From the IMG/VR virus record IMGVR_UViG_2711768014_000003: 9,837 nt of DNA, one strand, 5' to 3'. Below, piece by piece: positions 1,833 through 5,660 of the stretch. The DNA comes from a virus (taxonomy: Duplodnaviria; Heunggongvirae; Uroviricota; Caudoviricetes). Each line of letters opens with the position of its first letter. Within the stretch, counting starts at the first letter, position 1. Position numbers and translations under genes: made by a program. Under the pieces are notes generated by a model that was not told the origin of the DNA, ran no database searches, and saw only the letters and a program-made list of their open reading frames with translations.

Positions 1833-2203
1833 TGCGCCATGAGTTTATTTTACCTTATCCGCCGACGGTGAATACTTACTGGCGACGTCGTGGCAGCACA
1901 TATTTTGTATCAAAAGTTGGTGAGCGTTATCGCCGTGATGTGACGCTAATTGTTCGCCAGCAGCGGCTGAAATTAAACCTGTCCGGAAGGCTGGCGATAA
2001 AGATTATTGCAGAGCCACCGGATAAGCGCCGTCGTGACCTGGACAATATCCTGAAAGCACCACTGGATGCGCTGACGCATGCCGGACTACTCATAGACGA
2101 CGAGCAGTTTGATGAAATCAATATTGTGCGCGGTCAGCTCGTTCCTGGTGGGCGACTGGGCGTGAAGATTTATGAAATCACAGGTGATAACGATGGCGCG
2201 TGA
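1832..2203 (+). CDS. rusA: Crossover junction endodeoxyribonuclease RusA (Holliday junction resolvase)
   Basis: The 123-aa translation ([12 protein letters not shown]...[31 protein letters not shown]...[11 protein letters not shown]) matches my recollection of RusA, including the acidic DLDN motif. Position downstream of replication genes and upstream of Q is typical for lambdoid phages. Confidence 0.85.
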
Positions 2204-2579
2204 TATTCAGCAGGTTATGGAACGGTGGGGGGCTTGGGCTGCAAACACTCATGAAGATGTATCCTGGGCGTCGATCGCTGCTGGTTTTAAAGGGTTAATT
2301 CCGTCGAAAGTGAAATCACGCCCTCAGTGTTCTGATGATGATGCAATGATAATTTGTGGCTGTATGGCCCGGTTGAACAAGAAAAATCAGGATTTGCACG
2401 ATTTGCTGGTGGATTATTACGTAGGTGGAATGACTTTTATGAGTCTGGCACGGAAACATGGGTGTTCGGATACCTGTATTGGCAAGCGCCTGCAGAAAGC
2501 GGAAGGGGTTATTGATGGCATGTTGATGATGCTTGATATCCGGCTGGAGATGGACAGATACGTAGAACGAATTATGTAG
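2193..2579 (+). CDS. Q: Late-gene antitermination protein Q (Q-family antiterminator)
   Basis: The translation ([23 protein letters not shown]...[20 protein letters not shown]...) matches my recollection of the Q antiterminators of Stx-phage and phage-21-type lambdoids, with Cys-rich putative zinc-binding residues. Start chosen at ATG 2193 (AGGTGA 7 nt upstream); an alternative in-frame ATG at 2172 overlaps rusA. A promoter-like element follows the stop immediately. Confidence 0.8.
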
Positions 2580-2583
2580 GTGC

Positions 2584-2613
2584 TTGACCAGACACATTGT
2601 CCGGGGCTATATT
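2584..2613 (+). promoter_or_regulatory. Candidate late promoter (pR'-like): TTGACC, 18-nt spacer, TATATT
   Basis: The -35 hexamer TTGACC (2584-2589) and -10 TATATT (2608-2613) start 5 nt after the Q stop codon, the canonical position of pR' in lambdoid phages. A hairpin (CGCCAG-N6-CTGGCG, 2621-2638) lies in the predicted initial transcript. Confidence 0.5.
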
Positions 2614-2674
2614 CCTCACGCGCCAGCAAAATCTGGCGTCGGGATTGGAACCCCGGATAGAGACCGCGACAGAC

Positions 2675-2698
2675 ACACGCCGCGAGCGTGTTTTTTAT
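2675..2698 (+). terminator. Intrinsic terminator (tR'-like) downstream of the candidate late promoter
   Basis: Stem ACACGC (2675-2680), loop CGCGA, stem GCGTGT (2686-2691), followed by a T-run (2691-2697). It would end a short (~75 nt) 6S-like leader RNA unless antiterminated by Q. Confidence 0.5.
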
Positions 2699-2824
2699 TG
2701 TCGTATGCACGCGCACATCTGAATTATGGTGGGGCGCATGGGGGAGCTGAAAAGCTCGCCGGTCGGTTTCCCGGTAGTTCCAACCCTGTGCGTCTCACCA
2801 CCCGATGATTGGAACCTGACGGTG

Positions 2825-2853
2825 TTGACAGTTTCAGGTTTGCAGTTTACATT
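2825..2853 (+). promoter_or_regulatory. Near-consensus sigma70 promoter (TTGACA, 17 nt, TACATT), likely for the ORF6N gene
   Basis: TTGACA at 2825-2830, exact 17-nt spacer, TACATT at 2848-2853. It is followed about 35 nt later by a weak hairpin (CCACA 2889-2893 / TGTGG 2905-2909) plus a T7 run (2910-2916), then about 145 nt of leader before the ORF6N start. Confidence 0.4.
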
Positions 2854-3059
2854 TCCCCGCGGTGCTCAAAACACCTCGAAAGCGGTATCCACACCCGATA
2901 GCCATGTGGTTTTTTTGTGTCCAGAATTCTTGGTTTATGACCGGGTGTGCGGCTAATACAATACCAGCAATGGAAATACGCCCGCCGACTTTCGACGGTT
3001 TTGAGCGCCCGGTCACCCTCTCAAAAGGGGTAAATCAAAATATTCGAAAGGACATGTCT

Positions 3060-3623
3060 ATGAATCGCACGTCTATTGAAAAACTCCCGTCACTTACGCA
3101 TAACCATCTTCCTGTCATGACAACAGAGCTGCTGGCTGATTTGTACGGAACAGAGCGCCAGCGTTTGACAAACAATTTCAATCGAAACAAAGAACGGTTT
3201 ATAGAAGGTAAACATTTTTTCCTGATAGAAGGTGATGCGTTACGAGAGTTGAAGAACGAAAACTCTTTAAGAGTTTCTGTGAAAATTGCCCGTAACGTTC
3301 GCTCCCTCATCCTCTGGACAGAACGTGGCGCAGCCCGTCACGCCAAAATGCTCGAAACCGATCAGGCGTGGGAAGTGTTCGAAAAACTGGAAGACTGTTA
3401 TTTCAACCAGAAACAGCCACCAGCGGCACAAAACACATCTATCGAAAATGATGGATGCGCATTACTGAGCCACTTCGATAAACACGGTCAGGTTGAGTTC
3501 ACGGAAAAGGTACCCGCCGATGCGATGGTATGTACTCTGGAACGGTTTAAATTTTATCTGGAGCAACACGGGTGGATCGTTGCCCGTAAAGAGCAACTGG
3601 TGGAGCGGTTGATGCGGTTTTAA
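3060..3623 (+). CDS. ORF6N-domain protein (KilA-N/antirepressor-like DNA-binding domain) with uncharacterised C-terminal domain
   Basis: ORF-track 2862..3623. The N-terminal region (HLPVMTTELLADLYGTERQRLTNNFNRNKERFIEGKHFFLIEGDALREL) fits the ORF6N consensus as I recall it (V..T..LA.LYG...R.L...RN..RF.EG..F.L). Start chosen at ATG 3060, with AAAGGA 7 nt upstream; the ATG at 3054 is in frame but too close to the SD. The upstream 64 codons of the ORF are probably untranslated. Confidence 0.7.
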   Translation: MNRTSIEKLPSLTHNHLPVMTTELLADLYGTERQRLTNNFNRNKERFIEGKHFFLIEGDALRELKNENSLRVSVKIARNVRSLILWTERGAARHAKMLETDQAWEVFEKLEDCYFNQKQPPAAQNTSIENDGCALLSHFDKHGQVEFTEKVPADAMVCTLERFKFYLEQHGWIVARKEQLVERLMRF

Positions 3624-3698
3624 AAATTTTTTCCGAAAACTTTACGATCGTAAAAAGTTGAATATCCTGTTAAGAGTGGTTACTACGCCACACAGCTT

Positions 3699-3726
3699 AA
3701 ACCCGCCGATGAGCGGGTTTTTTTAT
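3699..3726 (+). terminator. Intrinsic terminator after the ORF6N gene
   Basis: Stem AAACCCGC (3699-3706), loop CGATGA, stem GCGGGTTT (3713-3720), followed by TTTT (3721-3724). Confidence 0.6.
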
Positions 3727-3774
3727 ACCTGAAAAACGGCACAGGACGTTAAACGTGCTGGTGGTCAGATGAGT

Positions 3775-3803
3775 TTGCAGATGTGATGACATATGGTTAT
3801 TAT
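3775..3803 (+). promoter_or_regulatory. Candidate promoter for the tRNA array (TTGCAG, 17 nt, TATTAT)
   Basis: The -35-like TTGCAG (3775-3780) and -10-like TATTAT (3798-3803) sit about 10 nt upstream of the first tRNA 5' end (3813). Confidence 0.35.
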
Positions 3804-3812
3804 TCTGCCTCC

Positions 3813-3889
3813 GGCCCTTTAGCTCAGTTGGTCAGAGCGAGCGACTCATAATCGCCAGGTCGCTGGTTCAAGTCCAGCAAGGGCCACCA
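3813..3889 (+). tRNA. tRNA with anticodon CAT; sequence resembles E. coli ileX-type tRNA-Ile2 (lysidine, AUA-decoding), although the anticodon alone would read as Met
   Basis: Manual cloverleaf: acceptor GGCCCTT/AAGGGCC, D-arm GCTC...GAGC, anticodon loop CTCATAA (CAT at 3847-3849), T-arm GCTGG-TTCAAGT-CCAGC, discriminator A, encoded CCA. 77 nt. Confidence 0.85.
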
Positions 3890-3890
3890 A

Positions 3891-3967
3891 CCACCACTAG
3901 CTCATCCGGATAGAGCATCAACCTTCTAAGTTGACGGTGCGAGGTTCGAGTCCTCGGTGGTGGGCCA
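3891..3967 (+). tRNA. tRNA-Arg (anticodon TCT, decodes AGA/AGG)
   Basis: Manual fold: acceptor CCACCAC/GTGGTGG (unusual C1-G72), D-arm GCTC...GAGC, anticodon stem TCAAC/GTTGA with loop CTTCTAA (TCT at 3925-3927), T-arm CGAGG-TTCGAGT-CCTCG, discriminator G, encoded CCA. It starts 1 nt after the previous tRNA. Confidence 0.8.
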
Positions 3968-3969
3968 GC

Positions 3970-4045
<76 letters not shown>

Positions 4046-4048
4046 TAT

Positions 4049-4123
<75 letters not shown>

Positions 4124-4570
4124 GCGAGATTTGAGACGAAGGTTGTTATTTGCACTGACACAATATTGTGTGGGAATGTCTGACTCCTTACCATCTCCTG
4201 TTCTGTGATGTTGTTTTGTTGCAGTTCCAGTGCTCTTTTTTCAGCACCAGAATGGTGCATTGTCGGTCAGGTTACGTAGTGAACCTCTGGCAGGGGACTG
4301 ATGATTCATCATTCTGGTGTTGTAAATATCTCTTCGGACAACTTACAAAATATTCTAAGCAAACCCCGGGAACACACTCTTAACTGCCTTGGCTGGCGGT
4401 TTTTTGTACAGCGCTCGGTATGTGTGAGCTGGAAATCAGATTTTGCATGGACTGGAATCATGCTGTTATTTAGGGGCGAAGAACTGGCTTTTTCTTCCGC
4501 CTTCTCACCAGTAACGATTAGAAAAATAATGAAATGCCCCCCTCCGGGGAGGAGGACCGTAGAAAAAAGG

Positions 4571-4628
4571 ACCCGCCAGCAAAAACATTGGGGATGAACA
4601 GCTTTCGCTACTCAGATTGCTGGCGGGT
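4571..4628. repeat. 12-bp perfect inverted repeat (ACCCGCCAGCAA, 34-nt spacer, TTGCTGGCGGGT)
   Basis: Arms at 4571-4582 and 4617-4628 are exact reverse complements. On the minus strand the structure is followed by CCTTTTTTCT (complement of 4561-4570), so it could act as a minus-strand terminator or a structured RNA/protein-binding element. Confidence 0.5.
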
Positions 4629-4736
4629 AAAGTTCCTCATGAATTAAGAATGCTACGCGATCTTTTTTAATGGAAATGAAAATTATTGTCAATTAGTCGT
4701 GCGTGTTTTTTCATACAATATTGGTAAAGGTGATTC

Positions 4737-4769
4737 AGGCCATCAGAGTTTTGCTGATGGCCTTTTTTC
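4737..4769 (+). terminator. Strong intrinsic terminator about 35 bp upstream of the holin gene
   Basis: Perfect 10-bp stem AGGCCATCAG (4737-4746) / CTGATGGCCT (4754-4763), 7-nt loop, followed by TTTTTT (4763-4768). Confidence 0.6.
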
Positions 4770-4803
4770 TTTCCGATAGCACAGGTCTGTCGGGGGGCGG
4801 GAT

Positions 4804-5019
4804 ATGTATCAGATGGAAAAAATATCAACAGGCATTGCCTACGGCACCTCCGCCGGCAGTGCCGGCTACTGGTTTTTGCAGTGGTTGGATCAGGTCAGTC
4901 CATCACAGTGGGCTGCGATTGGTGTGCTGGGAAGTCTGCTTCTGGGGCTTCTGACTTATCTGACAAATCTGTATTTCAAAATAAGAGAAGACAAGCGTAA
5001 GGCTGCGAGAGGTGAATAA
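4804..5019 (+). CDS. S: Class II holin, phage 21 S-type pinholin with dual-start motif
   Basis: The 71-aa product ([71 protein letters not shown]) is near-identical to my recollection of phage 21 S21: two TM segments, charged C-terminus, Met1/Met4 dual start (alternative start 4813). The stop overlaps the endolysin start (TAATG). Confidence 0.9.
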
Positions 5020-5166
5020 TGTCGCCATCATTACGCAAGGCTGTTGCAGCTGCTATTGGTGGTGGGGCTGTTGCTATAGCATCTGTGTTAATCACTGGCC
5101 CAGGTGGTAACGATGGTCTGGAAGGTGTCAGCTACATACCATACAAAGATATCATTGGTGTATGGA
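5019..5166 (+). CDS. R: SAR endolysin (R21-type lysozyme), 5' part only; 3' part lost in the N run
   Basis: The N-terminus ([52 protein letters not shown]) matches the signal-anchor-release domain of phage 21 R as I recall it. The ORF runs into the Ns at 5167, so the catalytic domain is not visible. Confidence 0.85.
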
Positions 5167-5483
5167 CTGTATGTCANNNNNNNNNNNNNNNNNNNNNNNN
5201 NNNNNNNNNNNNNNNNNNNNNNNNNNNNNNNNNNNNNNNNNNNNNNNNNNNNNNNNNNNNNNNNNNNNNNNNNNNNNNNNNNNNNNNNNNNNNNNNNNNN
5301 NNNNNNNNNNNNNNNNNNNNNNNNNNNNNNNNNNNNNNNNNNNNNNNNNNNNNNNNNNNNNNNNNNNNNNNNNNNNNNNNNNNNNNNNNNNNNNNNNNNN
5401 NNNNNNNNNNNNNNNNNNNNNNNNNNNNNNNNNNNNNNNNNNNNNNNNNNNNNNNNNNNNNNNNNNNNNNNNNNNNNNNNNNN
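5167..5483. other. Run of 317 N (assembly gap or masked sequence)
   Basis: Directly visible. It interrupts the endolysin 3' region and the 5' regions of Rz and Rz1. The apparent in-frame continuity across the Ns in the ORF track is an artefact. Confidence 0.99.
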
Positions 5484-5660
5484 GCAGTCTGTCAGTCAGT
5501 GCGTGAAGCCACCACCGCCTCCGGCGTGGATAATGCAACCAGCCCCCGACTGGCAGACACCGCTGAACGGGATTATTTCACCCTCAGAGAGCGGCTGATG
5601 ACGATGCAGATGCAACTGGAAGGGGCACAGGAGTATATCCGCACTCAGTGCATTAAGTAG
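5484..5660 (+). CDS. Rz: Rz i-spanin, C-terminal part only (5' end in gap)
   Basis: The translation after the gap (AVCQSVREATTASGVDNATSPRLADTAERDYFTLRERLMTMQMQLEGAQEYIRTQCIK) closely matches my recollection of the lambda Rz C-terminus. Stop at 5658-5660. Confidence 0.85.
   Translation, partial: AVCQSVREATTASGVDNATSPRLADTAERDYFTLRERLMTMQMQLEGAQEYIRTQCIK
5485..5598 (+). CDS. Rz1: Rz1 o-spanin, C-terminal part only, embedded in the +1 frame of Rz (5' end in gap)
   Basis: The +1 frame after the gap gives QSVSQCVKPPPPPAWIMQPAPDWQTPLNGIISPSESG, matching the proline-rich lambda Rz1 C-terminus as I recall it. The lipobox and start lie in the N run. Confidence 0.8.
   Translation, partial: QSVSQCVKPPPPPAWIMQPAPDWQTPLNGIISPSESG

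What the first reader, a model, noticed from the sequence alone, without database searches (positions are those of the whole stretch)
2825..3726. Self-contained cassette in the Q-to-lysis interval: consensus promoter, structured leader, ORF6N-domain gene, terminator
A near-consensus promoter (TTGACA, 17 nt, TACATT) is followed by a hairpin plus U7 tract (2889-2916) that could attenuate transcription or release a ~55-nt RNA. Then comes a gene whose N-terminal half is an ORF6N/KilA-N-like DNA-binding domain and whose C-terminal ~85 residues I cannot place. A terminator (3699-3726) closes the unit. An autonomous unit inside the late operon is the signature of a moron, likely expressed from the prophage. 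ORF6N proteins are usually annotated as antirepressors, so the role of this one (regulator, superinfection exclusion, other) is unknown.
Basis: partly seen in the sequence, partly recalled or inferred. Interest (0 to 1): 0.5.

Follow-up and report, generated by a model that had tools for sequence, protein, structure and literature searches.

The report
Antisense-RNA-gated phage antirepressor cassette
The cassette is a self-contained prophage switch in which a small structured RNA in the leader can pair with the ribosome-binding site of an antirepressor-like gene, like the phage P1 c4/ant immunity system but using an RNA family (sRNA-Xcc1) whose job was not known.

Summary
It also missed a canonical IsrK/C4 immunity-RNA unit directly upstream (2584-2815).

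The hairpin-2 loop of the Xcc1-like RNA (CUUUCGA) is complementary to UCGAAAG in the short leader RNA and to UCGAAAG overlapping the gene's Shine-Dalgarno. A second element (UUUUGAG) matches CUCAAAA in two hairpin loops.

Across 88 related phage loci there are 51 different loops. In 30 of them at least 7 nt match both sites, against 0.6% of cross-class controls. The genes downstream are antirepressor types (ORF6N, Bro-N, KilA-N, Rha, AntA, P22_AR).

The protein is 49% identical over its full length to Gifsy-1 AnrP, which induces that prophage.

Best reading: a P1 immI / Gifsy-1 isrK-type RNA-gated antirepressor module that uses a second, C4-like RNA family. It is autonomous, but it is phage regulatory circuitry rather than a lysogenic-conversion moron. 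The C-terminal domain remains unplaced.

This exact copy sits in a Shigella sonnei-type prophage present in thousands of assemblies. I rate it a new variant of a known kind, of moderate interest.

The parts
2584..2613 (+). Promoter-like site of the upstream unit (PisrK-like; TTGACC, 18 nt, TATATT), directly after the Q stop codon
   Evidence: Its position is conserved in E. coli and Stx-phage relatives. It is homologous to the Gifsy-1 isrK promoter region (PMC4825925).
2620..2696 (+). IsrK-like short RNA. It carries the a1/b1 target hairpins (Rfam c4-a1b1 at 2607-2659) and its own terminator (2675-2691 plus a T run)
   Evidence: Rfam isrK 77.5 bits (gathering score 50); c4-a1b1 50.1 bits. Terminator; fold.
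2722..2805 (+). C4 antisense RNA of the upstream unit
   Evidence: Rfam C4 71 bits (gathering score 45). Its b' element GUUCCAA covaries with b1 and b2 across the window, PhiR12 and Nil2.
2808..2815 (+). b2-like target (AUUGGAAC) of the upstream C4 RNA. The a2 site, Shine-Dalgarno and ant gene that normally follow are absent, so this marks a fusion junction at about 2823-2860
   Evidence: Alignment A1. Homology to C4-then-ant modules ends at 2833/2834.
2825..2853 (+). Sigma-70 promoter-like site of the cassette (TTGACA, 17 nt, TACATT); predicted start near 2860-2861
2861..2916 (+). Short leader RNA (about 56 nt). It has a hairpin GGUG[CUCAAAA]CACC (2861-2875, a1-like), then UCGAAAG (2876-2882, b1-like), then a terminator hairpin 2889-2909 and U7 at 2910-2916
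   Evidence: Sequence; fold. Duplex with the Xcc1-like RNA is -46.7 kcal/mol, reached by 0 of 500 shuffles. Family conservation.
2939..3022 (+). sRNA-Xcc1-family RNA, a C4-like antisense RNA. It has a closing stem, two hairpins, b'-like CUUUCGA (2989-2995, in the hairpin-2 loop), a'-like UUUUGAG (2999-3005, in the 3' junction) and an ACCC tail
   Evidence: Rfam RF02221 77.4 bits (gathering score 53). Fold z = -1.8. Covariation.
3016..3052 (+). Translation-initiation region with the downstream targets. A hairpin CCCU[CUCAAAA]GGGG carries the a2-like site (3020-3026). UCGAAAG (3044-3050, b2-like) overlaps the Shine-Dalgarno AAGGA (3048-3052)
   Evidence: Sequence. Duplex -30.2 kcal/mol, reached by 0.6% of shuffles. 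In 67 of 68 relatives the target runs into the SD, and the start codon is mostly 8-11 nt downstream.
3060..3623 (+). Antirepressor-like gene (187 aa): an ORF6N domain (residues 13-97) plus a conserved C-terminal part of unknown fold. It is an AnrP homologue
   Evidence: Pfam. 4660 homologues. 49% identity over the full length to Gifsy-1 STM2616/AnrP. Structure and fold search.
3699..3726 (+). Intrinsic terminator that closes the unit
   Evidence: -12 kcal/mol, z = -3.4.

Best explanation
The cassette is an RNA-gated antirepressor module. It has the logic of phage P1 immI (c4 RNA and ant) and of the Gifsy-1 isrK-orf45-anrP locus, but its regulatory RNA belongs to the Rfam sRNA-Xcc1 family.

1. 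Inferred: a constitutive sigma-70 promoter (2825-2853) starts transcription near 2861.
2. Inferred: many transcripts stop at the weak leader terminator (2889-2916), giving a 56-nt RNA that carries two target sites, CUCAAAA in a hairpin loop and UCGAAAG.
3. Shown from sequence: read-through transcripts contain the Xcc1-like RNA (2939-3022) and the gene.
4. Inferred: that RNA is probably cut out, as C4 is.
5. Shown: the RNA presents CUUUCGA in the hairpin-2 loop and UUUUGAG in the 3' junction. These are complementary to the leader sites. They are also complementary to CUCAAAA (3020-3026) and to UCGAAAG (3044-3050), which overlaps the Shine-Dalgarno. Both relationships covary across the family.
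6. Inferred: pairing at the Shine-Dalgarno blocks translation of the ORF6N protein, so the protein stays off in the lysogen.
7. Inferred by analogy with IsrK: the short leader RNA is the better-matched partner. It acts as a decoy, in trans or in cis, that titrates the antisense RNA and switches translation on.
8. Inferred: the protein is an AnrP-like antirepressor whose production derepresses the prophage.

The IsrK/C4 unit upstream (2584-2815) is a separate-specificity unit that has lost its own ant gene and now reads into this cassette.
For: **RNA identity and complementarity**
- Rfam hits: sRNA-Xcc1 77.4 bits, isrK 77.5 bits, C4 71 bits, c4-a1b1 50.1 bits.
- Three specificity variants show matched three-way changes. 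The window has loop CUUUCGA and targets UCGAAAG twice. EC12 and RM8082 have CUACUGA and UCAGUAG twice. Nil2 has CUACUUG and CAAGUAG twice.
- Among 88 unique phage loci there are 51 different hairpin-2 loops. In 30 of them at least 7 nt are exactly complementary to both a leader site and a site just upstream of the start codon. In 39 at least 6 nt are. The cross-class controls give 16/2550 and 115/2550.
- The junction element has a 6-mer or longer complementary to both sites in 59 of 88 loci, in about 10 motif classes. The cross-class control gives 37/1112.
- In 67 of 68 loci the downstream target runs into the Shine-Dalgarno, and the start codon is mostly 8-11 nt downstream.
- Duplex energies are -46.7 kcal/mol with the leader (0 of 500 shuffles reach it) and -30.2 with the initiation region (0.6% of shuffles). 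There is no cross-talk with the upstream C4/IsrK.
- The minimum-energy fold of the full 5' UTR pairs 2861-2885 with 2984-3012. This resembles Gifsy-1 'structure A' (PMC4825925).

**Promoter and terminator**
- Both are conserved in position across the family.

**Gene function**
- Of 59 distinct genes downstream of such RNAs, the Pfam matches are ORF6N 13, Bro-N 12, KilA-N 9, Rha 8, P22_AR_N 6, AntA 6 and P22_AR_C 17.
- The protein is 49% identical over its full length to Gifsy-1 AnrP. AnrP expression induces Gifsy-1 and raises transcription of the antQ operon, and AnrP alone is not toxic (PMC4825925).
- Gifsy-1 has the same layout: Q, isrK, C4, anrP, isrJ, tRNA, lysis genes.
- The c4 mechanism, antisense pairing around the ant ribosome-binding site, is established (PMC12197685).
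Against: - There is no expression, processing or binding data for this RNA family in phages. All steps beyond complementarity are inferred.
- The leader terminator is weak.
- The Rfam C4 model does not hit the Xcc1-like RNA. The relation to C4 is one of architecture, not demonstrated homology.
- The direction of the short RNA's effect, activator or co-repressor, is unknown.
- There is no icd/orf45-like coupling ORF between the RNA and the gene, so the details must differ from P1 and Gifsy-1.
- In bacterial chromosomes, mainly Xanthomonadaceae, the match between loop and downstream site is weaker: at least 7 nt in 47 of 115 loci. The rule may therefore not hold for the whole family.
- Antirepressor activity of this ORF6N protein is untested.
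- The host prophage looks IS-ridden and may be defective.
Confidence: 0.75

Rival explanations
1. This is a plain moron. A promoter, a simple transcription attenuator, a DNA-binding gene of unknown role and a terminator are expressed from the prophage for the host's or the phage's benefit. No antisense control is involved.
For: Promoter-like and terminator-like sites flank the gene. The unit is found in different genomic positions.
Against: This does not explain the three-way covariation between the RNA loop, the leader site and the Shine-Dalgarno site. It does not explain the Rfam RNA in the leader. It does not account for the homology to AnrP.
Confidence: 0.08
2. The promoter at 2825 and the hairpin plus U7 are the Q-dependent late promoter PR' and its terminator tR'. 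The 56-nt RNA would be the 6S-like terminated late transcript, and the gene simply the first late-operon gene.
For: The layout 'Q gene, then promoter, then a short terminated transcript' is the textbook Q cassette (bioRxiv 10.1101/651190). Q here is Q21-like (PF06530; PDB 6p18, E = 2.8e-7). I found no other convincing PR' before the holin gene.
Against: The same promoter-leader-RNA-gene unit lies upstream of Q in the nin region of Nil2 and Stx phages. None of 10 diverse phage contigs has a Q gene upstream of the unit. The leader sequence covaries with the downstream RNA, not with Q.
Confidence: 0.03
3. The Xcc1-like RNA is mainly a trans-acting sRNA that regulates host genes, as first proposed for Xanthomonas. 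Its position next to the ORF6N gene would be incidental.
For: sRNA-Xcc1 was detected as a stable RNA of about 88-100 nt in Xanthomonas and described as trans-acting (PMC2996969, PMC12189769). Other prophage sRNAs do act on host targets.
Against: The variable loop matches sites in its own unit in about 60-75% of specificity classes, against 0.6-4.5% of controls. With more than 50 different loops, a conserved host target is unlikely. A secondary trans role is not excluded.
Confidence: 0.07
4. The unit is a type I toxin-antitoxin-like or abortive-infection module. The ORF6N protein would be toxic, and the RNA an antitoxin that blocks its translation.
For: In Xanthomonas integron cassettes sRNA-Xcc1 sits upstream of the toxin gene symE (bioRxiv 10.1101/2025.06.18.660453). 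Translation-blocking antisense RNA is the logic of type I toxin-antitoxin systems.
Against: The homologue AnrP was not toxic on its own in cells lacking the locus. In Gifsy-1 the toxicity came from AntQ (PMC4825925). The downstream genes in phages are antirepressor families.
Confidence: 0.05

Closest known systems
Phage P1/P7 immI operon (c4 antisense RNA, icd, ant)
   Same: - The antisense RNA is encoded upstream of the antirepressor gene, on the same strand.
- Two short antisense elements sit in the same structural places, the hairpin-2 loop and the 3' junction inside a long closing stem.
- Matched target pairs lie both upstream (a1/b1) and downstream (a2/b2).
- The downstream site covers the ribosome-binding site.
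- Specificity varies between phages, which is the basis of heteroimmunity.
   Different: - The RNA is an sRNA-Xcc1 family member and is not hit by the Rfam C4 model.
- There is no icd-like ORF. The RNA acts directly at the ant Shine-Dalgarno, only 37 nt separate the RNA from the start codon, and no translational coupling is apparent.
- The leader has its own terminator.
- The antirepressor is an ORF6N protein, not P1 Ant.
Gifsy-1 isrK-orf45-anrP-isrJ locus (Hershko-Shalev et al. 2016, PMC4825925)
   Same: - It occupies the same genomic slot, between Q and the tRNA and lysis genes.
- The protein is homologous (49% identity, 187 aa against 187 aa).
- A short terminated leader RNA carries the target sites and is complementary to a downstream structured RNA.
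- Alternative pairing in cis is predicted.
- The window also carries a true IsrK/C4 copy directly upstream.
   Different: - In the window the IsrK/C4 unit is separated from the gene by a second, complete unit of a different RNA family and a different specificity.
- The orf45 coupling frame is disrupted. The homologous frame 2726-2956 runs into the second unit.
Rfam RF02221 sRNA-Xcc1 (Xanthomonas campestris integron-cassette sRNA)
   Same: The covariance-model match is above the gathering score (77.4 against 53) and covers the full length of the model.
   Different: It was described as a trans-acting sRNA of unknown target. Here it appears as a cis-encoded regulator with matched sites in its own unit, in front of phage antirepressor genes. 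The APSE-phage paper noted that it lies next to an ORF6N gene but gave no mechanism (bioRxiv 10.1101/2020.03.17.996009).
Satellite phage P4 CI RNA with seqA/seqC
   Same: A processed immunity RNA has complementary sites upstream and downstream in the same transcript.
   Different: P4 CI causes premature transcription termination of replication genes. Here the downstream site is a Shine-Dalgarno, and the gene is an antirepressor type.

Membership tests
Rfam sRNA-Xcc1 (RF02221) | The covariance-model score reaches the curated gathering score over the full model | tested here: met
   2939-3022, 77.4 bits against 53, model positions 1-87 of 87.
Rfam C4 antisense RNA (RF01695) / C4 clan | The covariance model matches the RNA that precedes the gene | tested here: not met
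   At 2939-3022 there is no C4 or c4-2 hit, even at E <= 1. The upstream RNA at 2722-2805 does match (71 bits). The cassette's RNA therefore works like C4 but is not a member by this test.
immI-type antisense control (P1 c4/ant) | Two antisense elements in the RNA, each complementary to a site upstream and a site downstream of the RNA | tested here: met
   CUUUCGA pairs with UCGAAAG at 2876-2882 and 3044-3050. UUUUGAG pairs with CUCAAAA at 2865-2871 and 3020-3026. Covariation is shown.
immI-type antisense control (P1 c4/ant) | The downstream target overlaps the ribosome-binding site of the regulated reading frame | tested here: met
   The target 3044-3050 overlaps AAGGA at 3048-3052. The same holds in 67 of 68 relatives.
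immI-type antisense control (P1 c4/ant) | A small upstream ORF (icd or orf45) whose translation is the direct target and is coupled to ant | tested here: not met
   There is no ORF between 3023 and 3059. The only frame from the upstream unit (2726-2956) ends inside the RNA.
immI-type antisense control (P1 c4/ant) | The RNA is released from the precursor by RNase P, which needs a tRNA-like acceptor stem and a CCA-like tail | not testable with these tools
   The closing stem is followed by ACCC. About 83% of viral copies have a CC-rich tail (CCC, ACC or CCA), but many Xanthomonas copies have TTC. This is suggestive only.
ORF6N domain proteins (PF10543) | The Pfam HMM match is above the gathering score | tested here: met
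   74.4 bits against 27.8, residues 13-97.
AnrP-type antirepressor (Gifsy-1 STM2616/SL2578) | Full-length homology, and prophage induction or derepression when the protein is expressed | tested here: inconclusive
   Homology is met: 49% identity over 184 of 187 residues, E = 6e-58. The activity cannot be tested here.
Moron | Its own promoter and terminator around a gene that is not needed for lytic growth, expressed from the prophage | tested here: inconclusive
   Promoter-like and terminator-like sites are present and conserved. Expression in lysogens cannot be tested here. The homologous IsrK, STnc1160 and IsrJ RNAs are highly expressed in Gifsy-1 lysogens (PMC7067206).
Q-dependent late promoter unit (PR', pause element, tR') | It lies immediately downstream of Q, has a Q-binding element and a sigma-dependent pause element, and is linked to Q across phages | tested here: not met
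   The unit occurs upstream of Q in Nil2. It occurs without any Q gene upstream in 10 of 10 diverse contigs. The Q-binding and pause elements were not identifiable.

The most novel reading that the evidence does not exclude
sRNA-Xcc1-family RNAs are a second, widespread class of C4-like 'immunity RNAs' with programmable specificity. This sample alone holds at least 50 different loops. Each RNA is part of a three-partner switch: a decoy leader RNA, the antisense RNA, and the Shine-Dalgarno of an antirepressor-type gene. The class occurs in phages of many Proteobacteria. This would give a mechanism and a target to an Rfam family so far described only as a trans-acting virulence-linked sRNA. The window would hold a two-layer version, an IsrK/C4 unit feeding into an Xcc1 unit.
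Probability: 0.5. Interest if true: 0.65.

Novelty: new variant of a known kind. Interest (0 to 1): 0.5.

Why it matters
Antirepressor modules decide whether a prophage stays silent or is induced. They also decide which phages are immune to each other.

If the Xcc1-type RNA works as inferred, several things follow:
- A common Rfam family gets a concrete target and mechanism.
- The many 'ORF6N/Bro/KilA/Rha' genes in prophage annotations gain a recognisable control element.
- The variable 7-8-nt loop with its two matching sites becomes a readable specificity code for predicting cross-immunity between prophages, including Stx and Gifsy-type phages.
- The matching is simple enough to test with reporter fusions and compensatory mutations.

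This particular copy is an ordinary, very common Shigella/E. coli prophage element. The interest lies in the family-level rule, not in this locus.

Tried and rejected
- **PR'/tR' reading of the 2825 promoter and the U7 hairpin.** Rejected, because the unit is not linked to Q genes.
- **Locating the real late promoter.** I compared 4560-4830 with phage records. Only the holin gene matched, so PR' stays unlocated.
- **Terminator loop as a duplicate of the RNA's 3' arm.** The idea was that the conserved terminator loop CCCGAUAG copies the 3' arm of the RNA's closing stem and covaries with it. The self matches were no better than the cross controls, so I dropped it.
- **Cross-talk between the upstream C4/IsrK and the cassette's sites.** The duplexes are no better than shuffles.
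- **Placing the C-terminal domain.** Pfam gives nothing. The AlphaFold model is weak there, at pLDDT 55-67. Foldseek against the PDB has no hit below E = 0.76.
- **RNase P-type CCA tail as a family feature.** It holds in phage copies only.
- **phiP27 as a guide to the Q-to-lysis interval.** Its Q region differs from the window's.
- **Literature check.** I searched for 'sRNA-Xcc1', 'RF02221', 'c4-a1b1', 'ORF6N' and antirepressor terms. No paper in the held library links sRNA-Xcc1 to C4-type control. Chen et al. 2011 (RNA Biology) could not be read.
Full report
**Setting.** The window is a lambdoid prophage segment. It carries, in order:
- a DnaB-like helicase gene and RusA;
- a Q21-family antiterminator (PF06530, 2172/2193-2579; PDB 6p18, E = 2.8e-7);
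- the region of interest;
- four tRNA genes (3813-4123);
- a phage-21-type holin (4804), lysozyme, HNH endonuclease, small and large terminase, and portal.

The exact ORF6N protein occurs in thousands of assemblies of 4.8-5.0 Mb genomes with IS elements nearby. Its 99% match is named Shigella sonnei. The best complete E. coli match to the region is only 87% identical.

**Check of the observation.** All the listed features are there.
- The promoter-like site (TTGACA 2825-2830, 17 nt, TACATT 2848-2853) scores 10/12. On its own it is no more than chance would give: 5 sites found against 3.0 +/- 1.5 expected.
- The hairpin CCACA/UGUGG plus U7 (2889-2916) is real but weak. It folds at -7.8 kcal/mol with z = +0.83.
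- The gene 3060-3623 has an ORF6N domain (E = 8.8e-21, residues 13-97).
- The terminator 3699-3720 is strong (z = -3.4).
- The C-terminal 60-85 residues stay unplaced. Pfam has no hit, the AlphaFold model has pLDDT 55-67 there, and no PDB fold match falls below E = 0.76.

Rfam finds four RNA elements between Q and the gene:
- c4-a1b1 (2607-2659);
- isrK (2620-2696, 77.5 bits);
- C4 antisense RNA (2722-2805, 71 bits);

The first three form the known immunity-RNA unit of phage P1 immI and of Gifsy-1. In Gifsy-1 the order is Q, isrK, C4 (= STnc1160/orf45), anrP, isrJ, tRNA, lysis genes (PMC4825925). The window's protein is 49% identical to AnrP over the whole length, 187 aa against 187 aa.

**The cassette is a second, complete unit.**
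- Homology to ordinary 'C4 then ant' modules (E. coli Z1323, PhiR12, Stx2a phages) ends at 2833/2834. The a2 site, the Shine-Dalgarno and the 5' half of the first ant gene are missing.
- From 2861 onward the window matches the 'promoter, leader, antB' unit of phage Nil2. That unit follows a first ant gene in the nin region, upstream of Q.
- The tandem form also occurs in E. coli EC12 and RM8082. It occurs in Salmonella-like contigs L007 and L116, which also carry isrJ and isrI respectively.

**RNA-RNA matching.** By direct reading:
- The hairpin-2 loop CUUUCGA (2989-2995) is complementary to UCGAAAG in the leader (2876-2882). It is also complementary to UCGAAAG at 3044-3050, which overlaps the Shine-Dalgarno AAGGA (3048-3052) ahead of ATG 3060.
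- The 3' junction UUUUGAG (2999-3005) is complementary to CUCAAAA, which sits in a hairpin loop both in the leader (2865-2871) and downstream (3020-3026).
- Three natural variants change all three loop-related positions together. The window has CUUUCGA and UCGAAAG, EC12 and RM8082 have CUACUGA and UCAGUAG, and Nil2 has CUACUUG and CAAGUAG.

**Family-wide test.** A scan of viral contigs for the conserved core gave 88 unique units.
- They carry 51 different hairpin-2 loops.
- In 30 classes at least 7 nt, and in 39 at least 6 nt, are exactly complementary to both a leader site and a site just upstream of the start codon. Cross-class controls give 16/2550 and 115/2550.
- The junction element behaves the same way: 59 of 88 units match, in about 10 motif classes, against a control of 37/1112.
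- In 67 of 68 units the downstream target runs into the Shine-Dalgarno. The start codon is mostly 8-11 nt further on.
- Of 85 units, 52 have a promoter match of at least 9/12 at a fixed distance, against 6% of shuffles.
- Of 84 units, 64 have a leader hairpin plus T run, with 18 different stems.
- Duplex energies in the window are -46.7 kcal/mol with the leader (0 of 500 shuffles reach it) and -30.2 with the initiation region (0.6% of shuffles). There is no cross-talk with the upstream C4/IsrK.
- The whole 5' UTR is predicted to pair leader and RNA in cis, as in Gifsy-1 'structure A'.

**What is regulated.** The 59 distinct genes behind such RNAs in phage contigs match ORF6N (13), Bro-N (12), KilA-N (9), Rha (8), P22_AR_N (6), AntA (6) and P22_AR_C (17). 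These are the classic antirepressor-type families. None of 10 diverse units has a Q gene upstream, which rules out the PR'/tR' reading.

**Mechanism.**
- Shown: the parts, their order, the complementarities and their covariation, and the overlap with the Shine-Dalgarno.
- Inferred from P1 c4 (PMC12197685) and from IsrK/AnrP (PMC4825925):
  - The Xcc1-like RNA blocks translation of the ORF6N protein.
  - The short leader RNA competes for it and turns translation on.
  - The protein derepresses the prophage.
- Differences from P1 and Gifsy-1: there is no icd/orf45 coupling ORF, the RNA family is different (the C4 model does not hit it), and the leader has its own terminator.

**Breadth.** The same RNA core occurs in Xanthomonadaceae, Rhodanobacter, Pasteurellaceae, Neisseria, Moraxella, Azospirillum, Desulfovibrio, Geobacteraceae, Chromobacterium, Photorhabdus and others. 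In those chromosomal copies:
- the loop matches the leader strongly, at least 7 nt in 97 of 115;
- the loop matches the downstream region less often, at least 7 nt in 47 of 115;
- the downstream proteins mostly have no Pfam family.

The rule is therefore best supported for phage antirepressor units.

**Literature.** The papers I could search describe sRNA-Xcc1 as a trans-acting, virulence-linked or vesicle-borne sRNA. They note its position upstream of symE or of an ORF6N gene, but none proposes C4-type control.

**Verdict.** The element is an autonomous, mobile cassette. It is phage regulatory circuitry of the immI/isrK kind, built on a different RNA family. This copy is common and possibly sits in a defective prophage. 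The family-level rule appears to be new and is easy to test.

Noticed in passing
window 2584-2815: A complete IsrK/C4 unit (promoter, a1/b1 hairpins, terminator, C4 RNA, b2 site) sits directly after Q. It lacks its a2 site, Shine-Dalgarno and ant gene, so it reads into the second unit. The fusion junction (about 2823-2860) is shared with E. coli EC12 and RM8082.
   Followed up: yes
window 2726-2956: The frame homologous to Gifsy-1 orf45 starts at +107 of the IsrK-like RNA and overlaps C4. Here it runs 76 codons through the second promoter and leader and ends inside the Xcc1-like RNA. Translational coupling to the ant gene, as in Gifsy-1, is unlikely here.
   Followed up: partly
window 2172-2579: The Q gene overlaps RusA. 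Public annotations call a 128-aa product, which corresponds to a start at 2193 rather than 2172. I could not locate the Q-dependent late promoter.
   Followed up: partly
window 3774-4123: There are four tRNA genes: Met(CAT), Arg(TCT), Thr(TGT) and Gly(TCC). A promoter-like site (TTTGCA, 18 nt, TATTAT; 3774-3803) lies 10 nt upstream. The layout recalls the tRNA clusters downstream of Q in Stx phages.
   Followed up: no
window 4124-4803: About 680 nt without a convincing gene hold several terminator-like hairpins. One is a strong terminator at 4737-4763, only 40 nt before the holin start. This stretch has no similar sequence in the phage collection.
   Followed up: partly
window ~5170-5480: A run of N (masked sequence) lies inside the lysozyme gene (5019-5660).
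   Followed up: no
L066, L100, L113, L061 (viral contigs): Each of these contigs carries two sRNA-Xcc1 units. Tandem or multiple RNA-gated antirepressor units in one phage are therefore not rare.
   Followed up: no
L129-L248 (bacterial genome contigs): In Xanthomonadaceae and Rhodanobacter chromosomes the Xcc1-type RNA precedes proteins without any Pfam family, for example those starting 'MSTFDSDDLETTGYFLPEDSQLRL...'. There the loop matches the leader well but matches the downstream region less often.
   Followed up: partly
L249-L253 (Shigella-type chromosomes), upstream of the DnaB-like gene and after HNH: IS-type transposase genes flank or interrupt the prophage in several genomes. The prophage carrying this cassette may therefore be defective.
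   Followed up: no
leader terminator loops across the family (e.g. window 2894-2902): The loop of the leader terminator keeps the sequence CCCGAUAG / CCCGNYAG across very different units. A test for covariation with the RNA's closing stem was negative, so its role is unexplained.
   Followed up: partly
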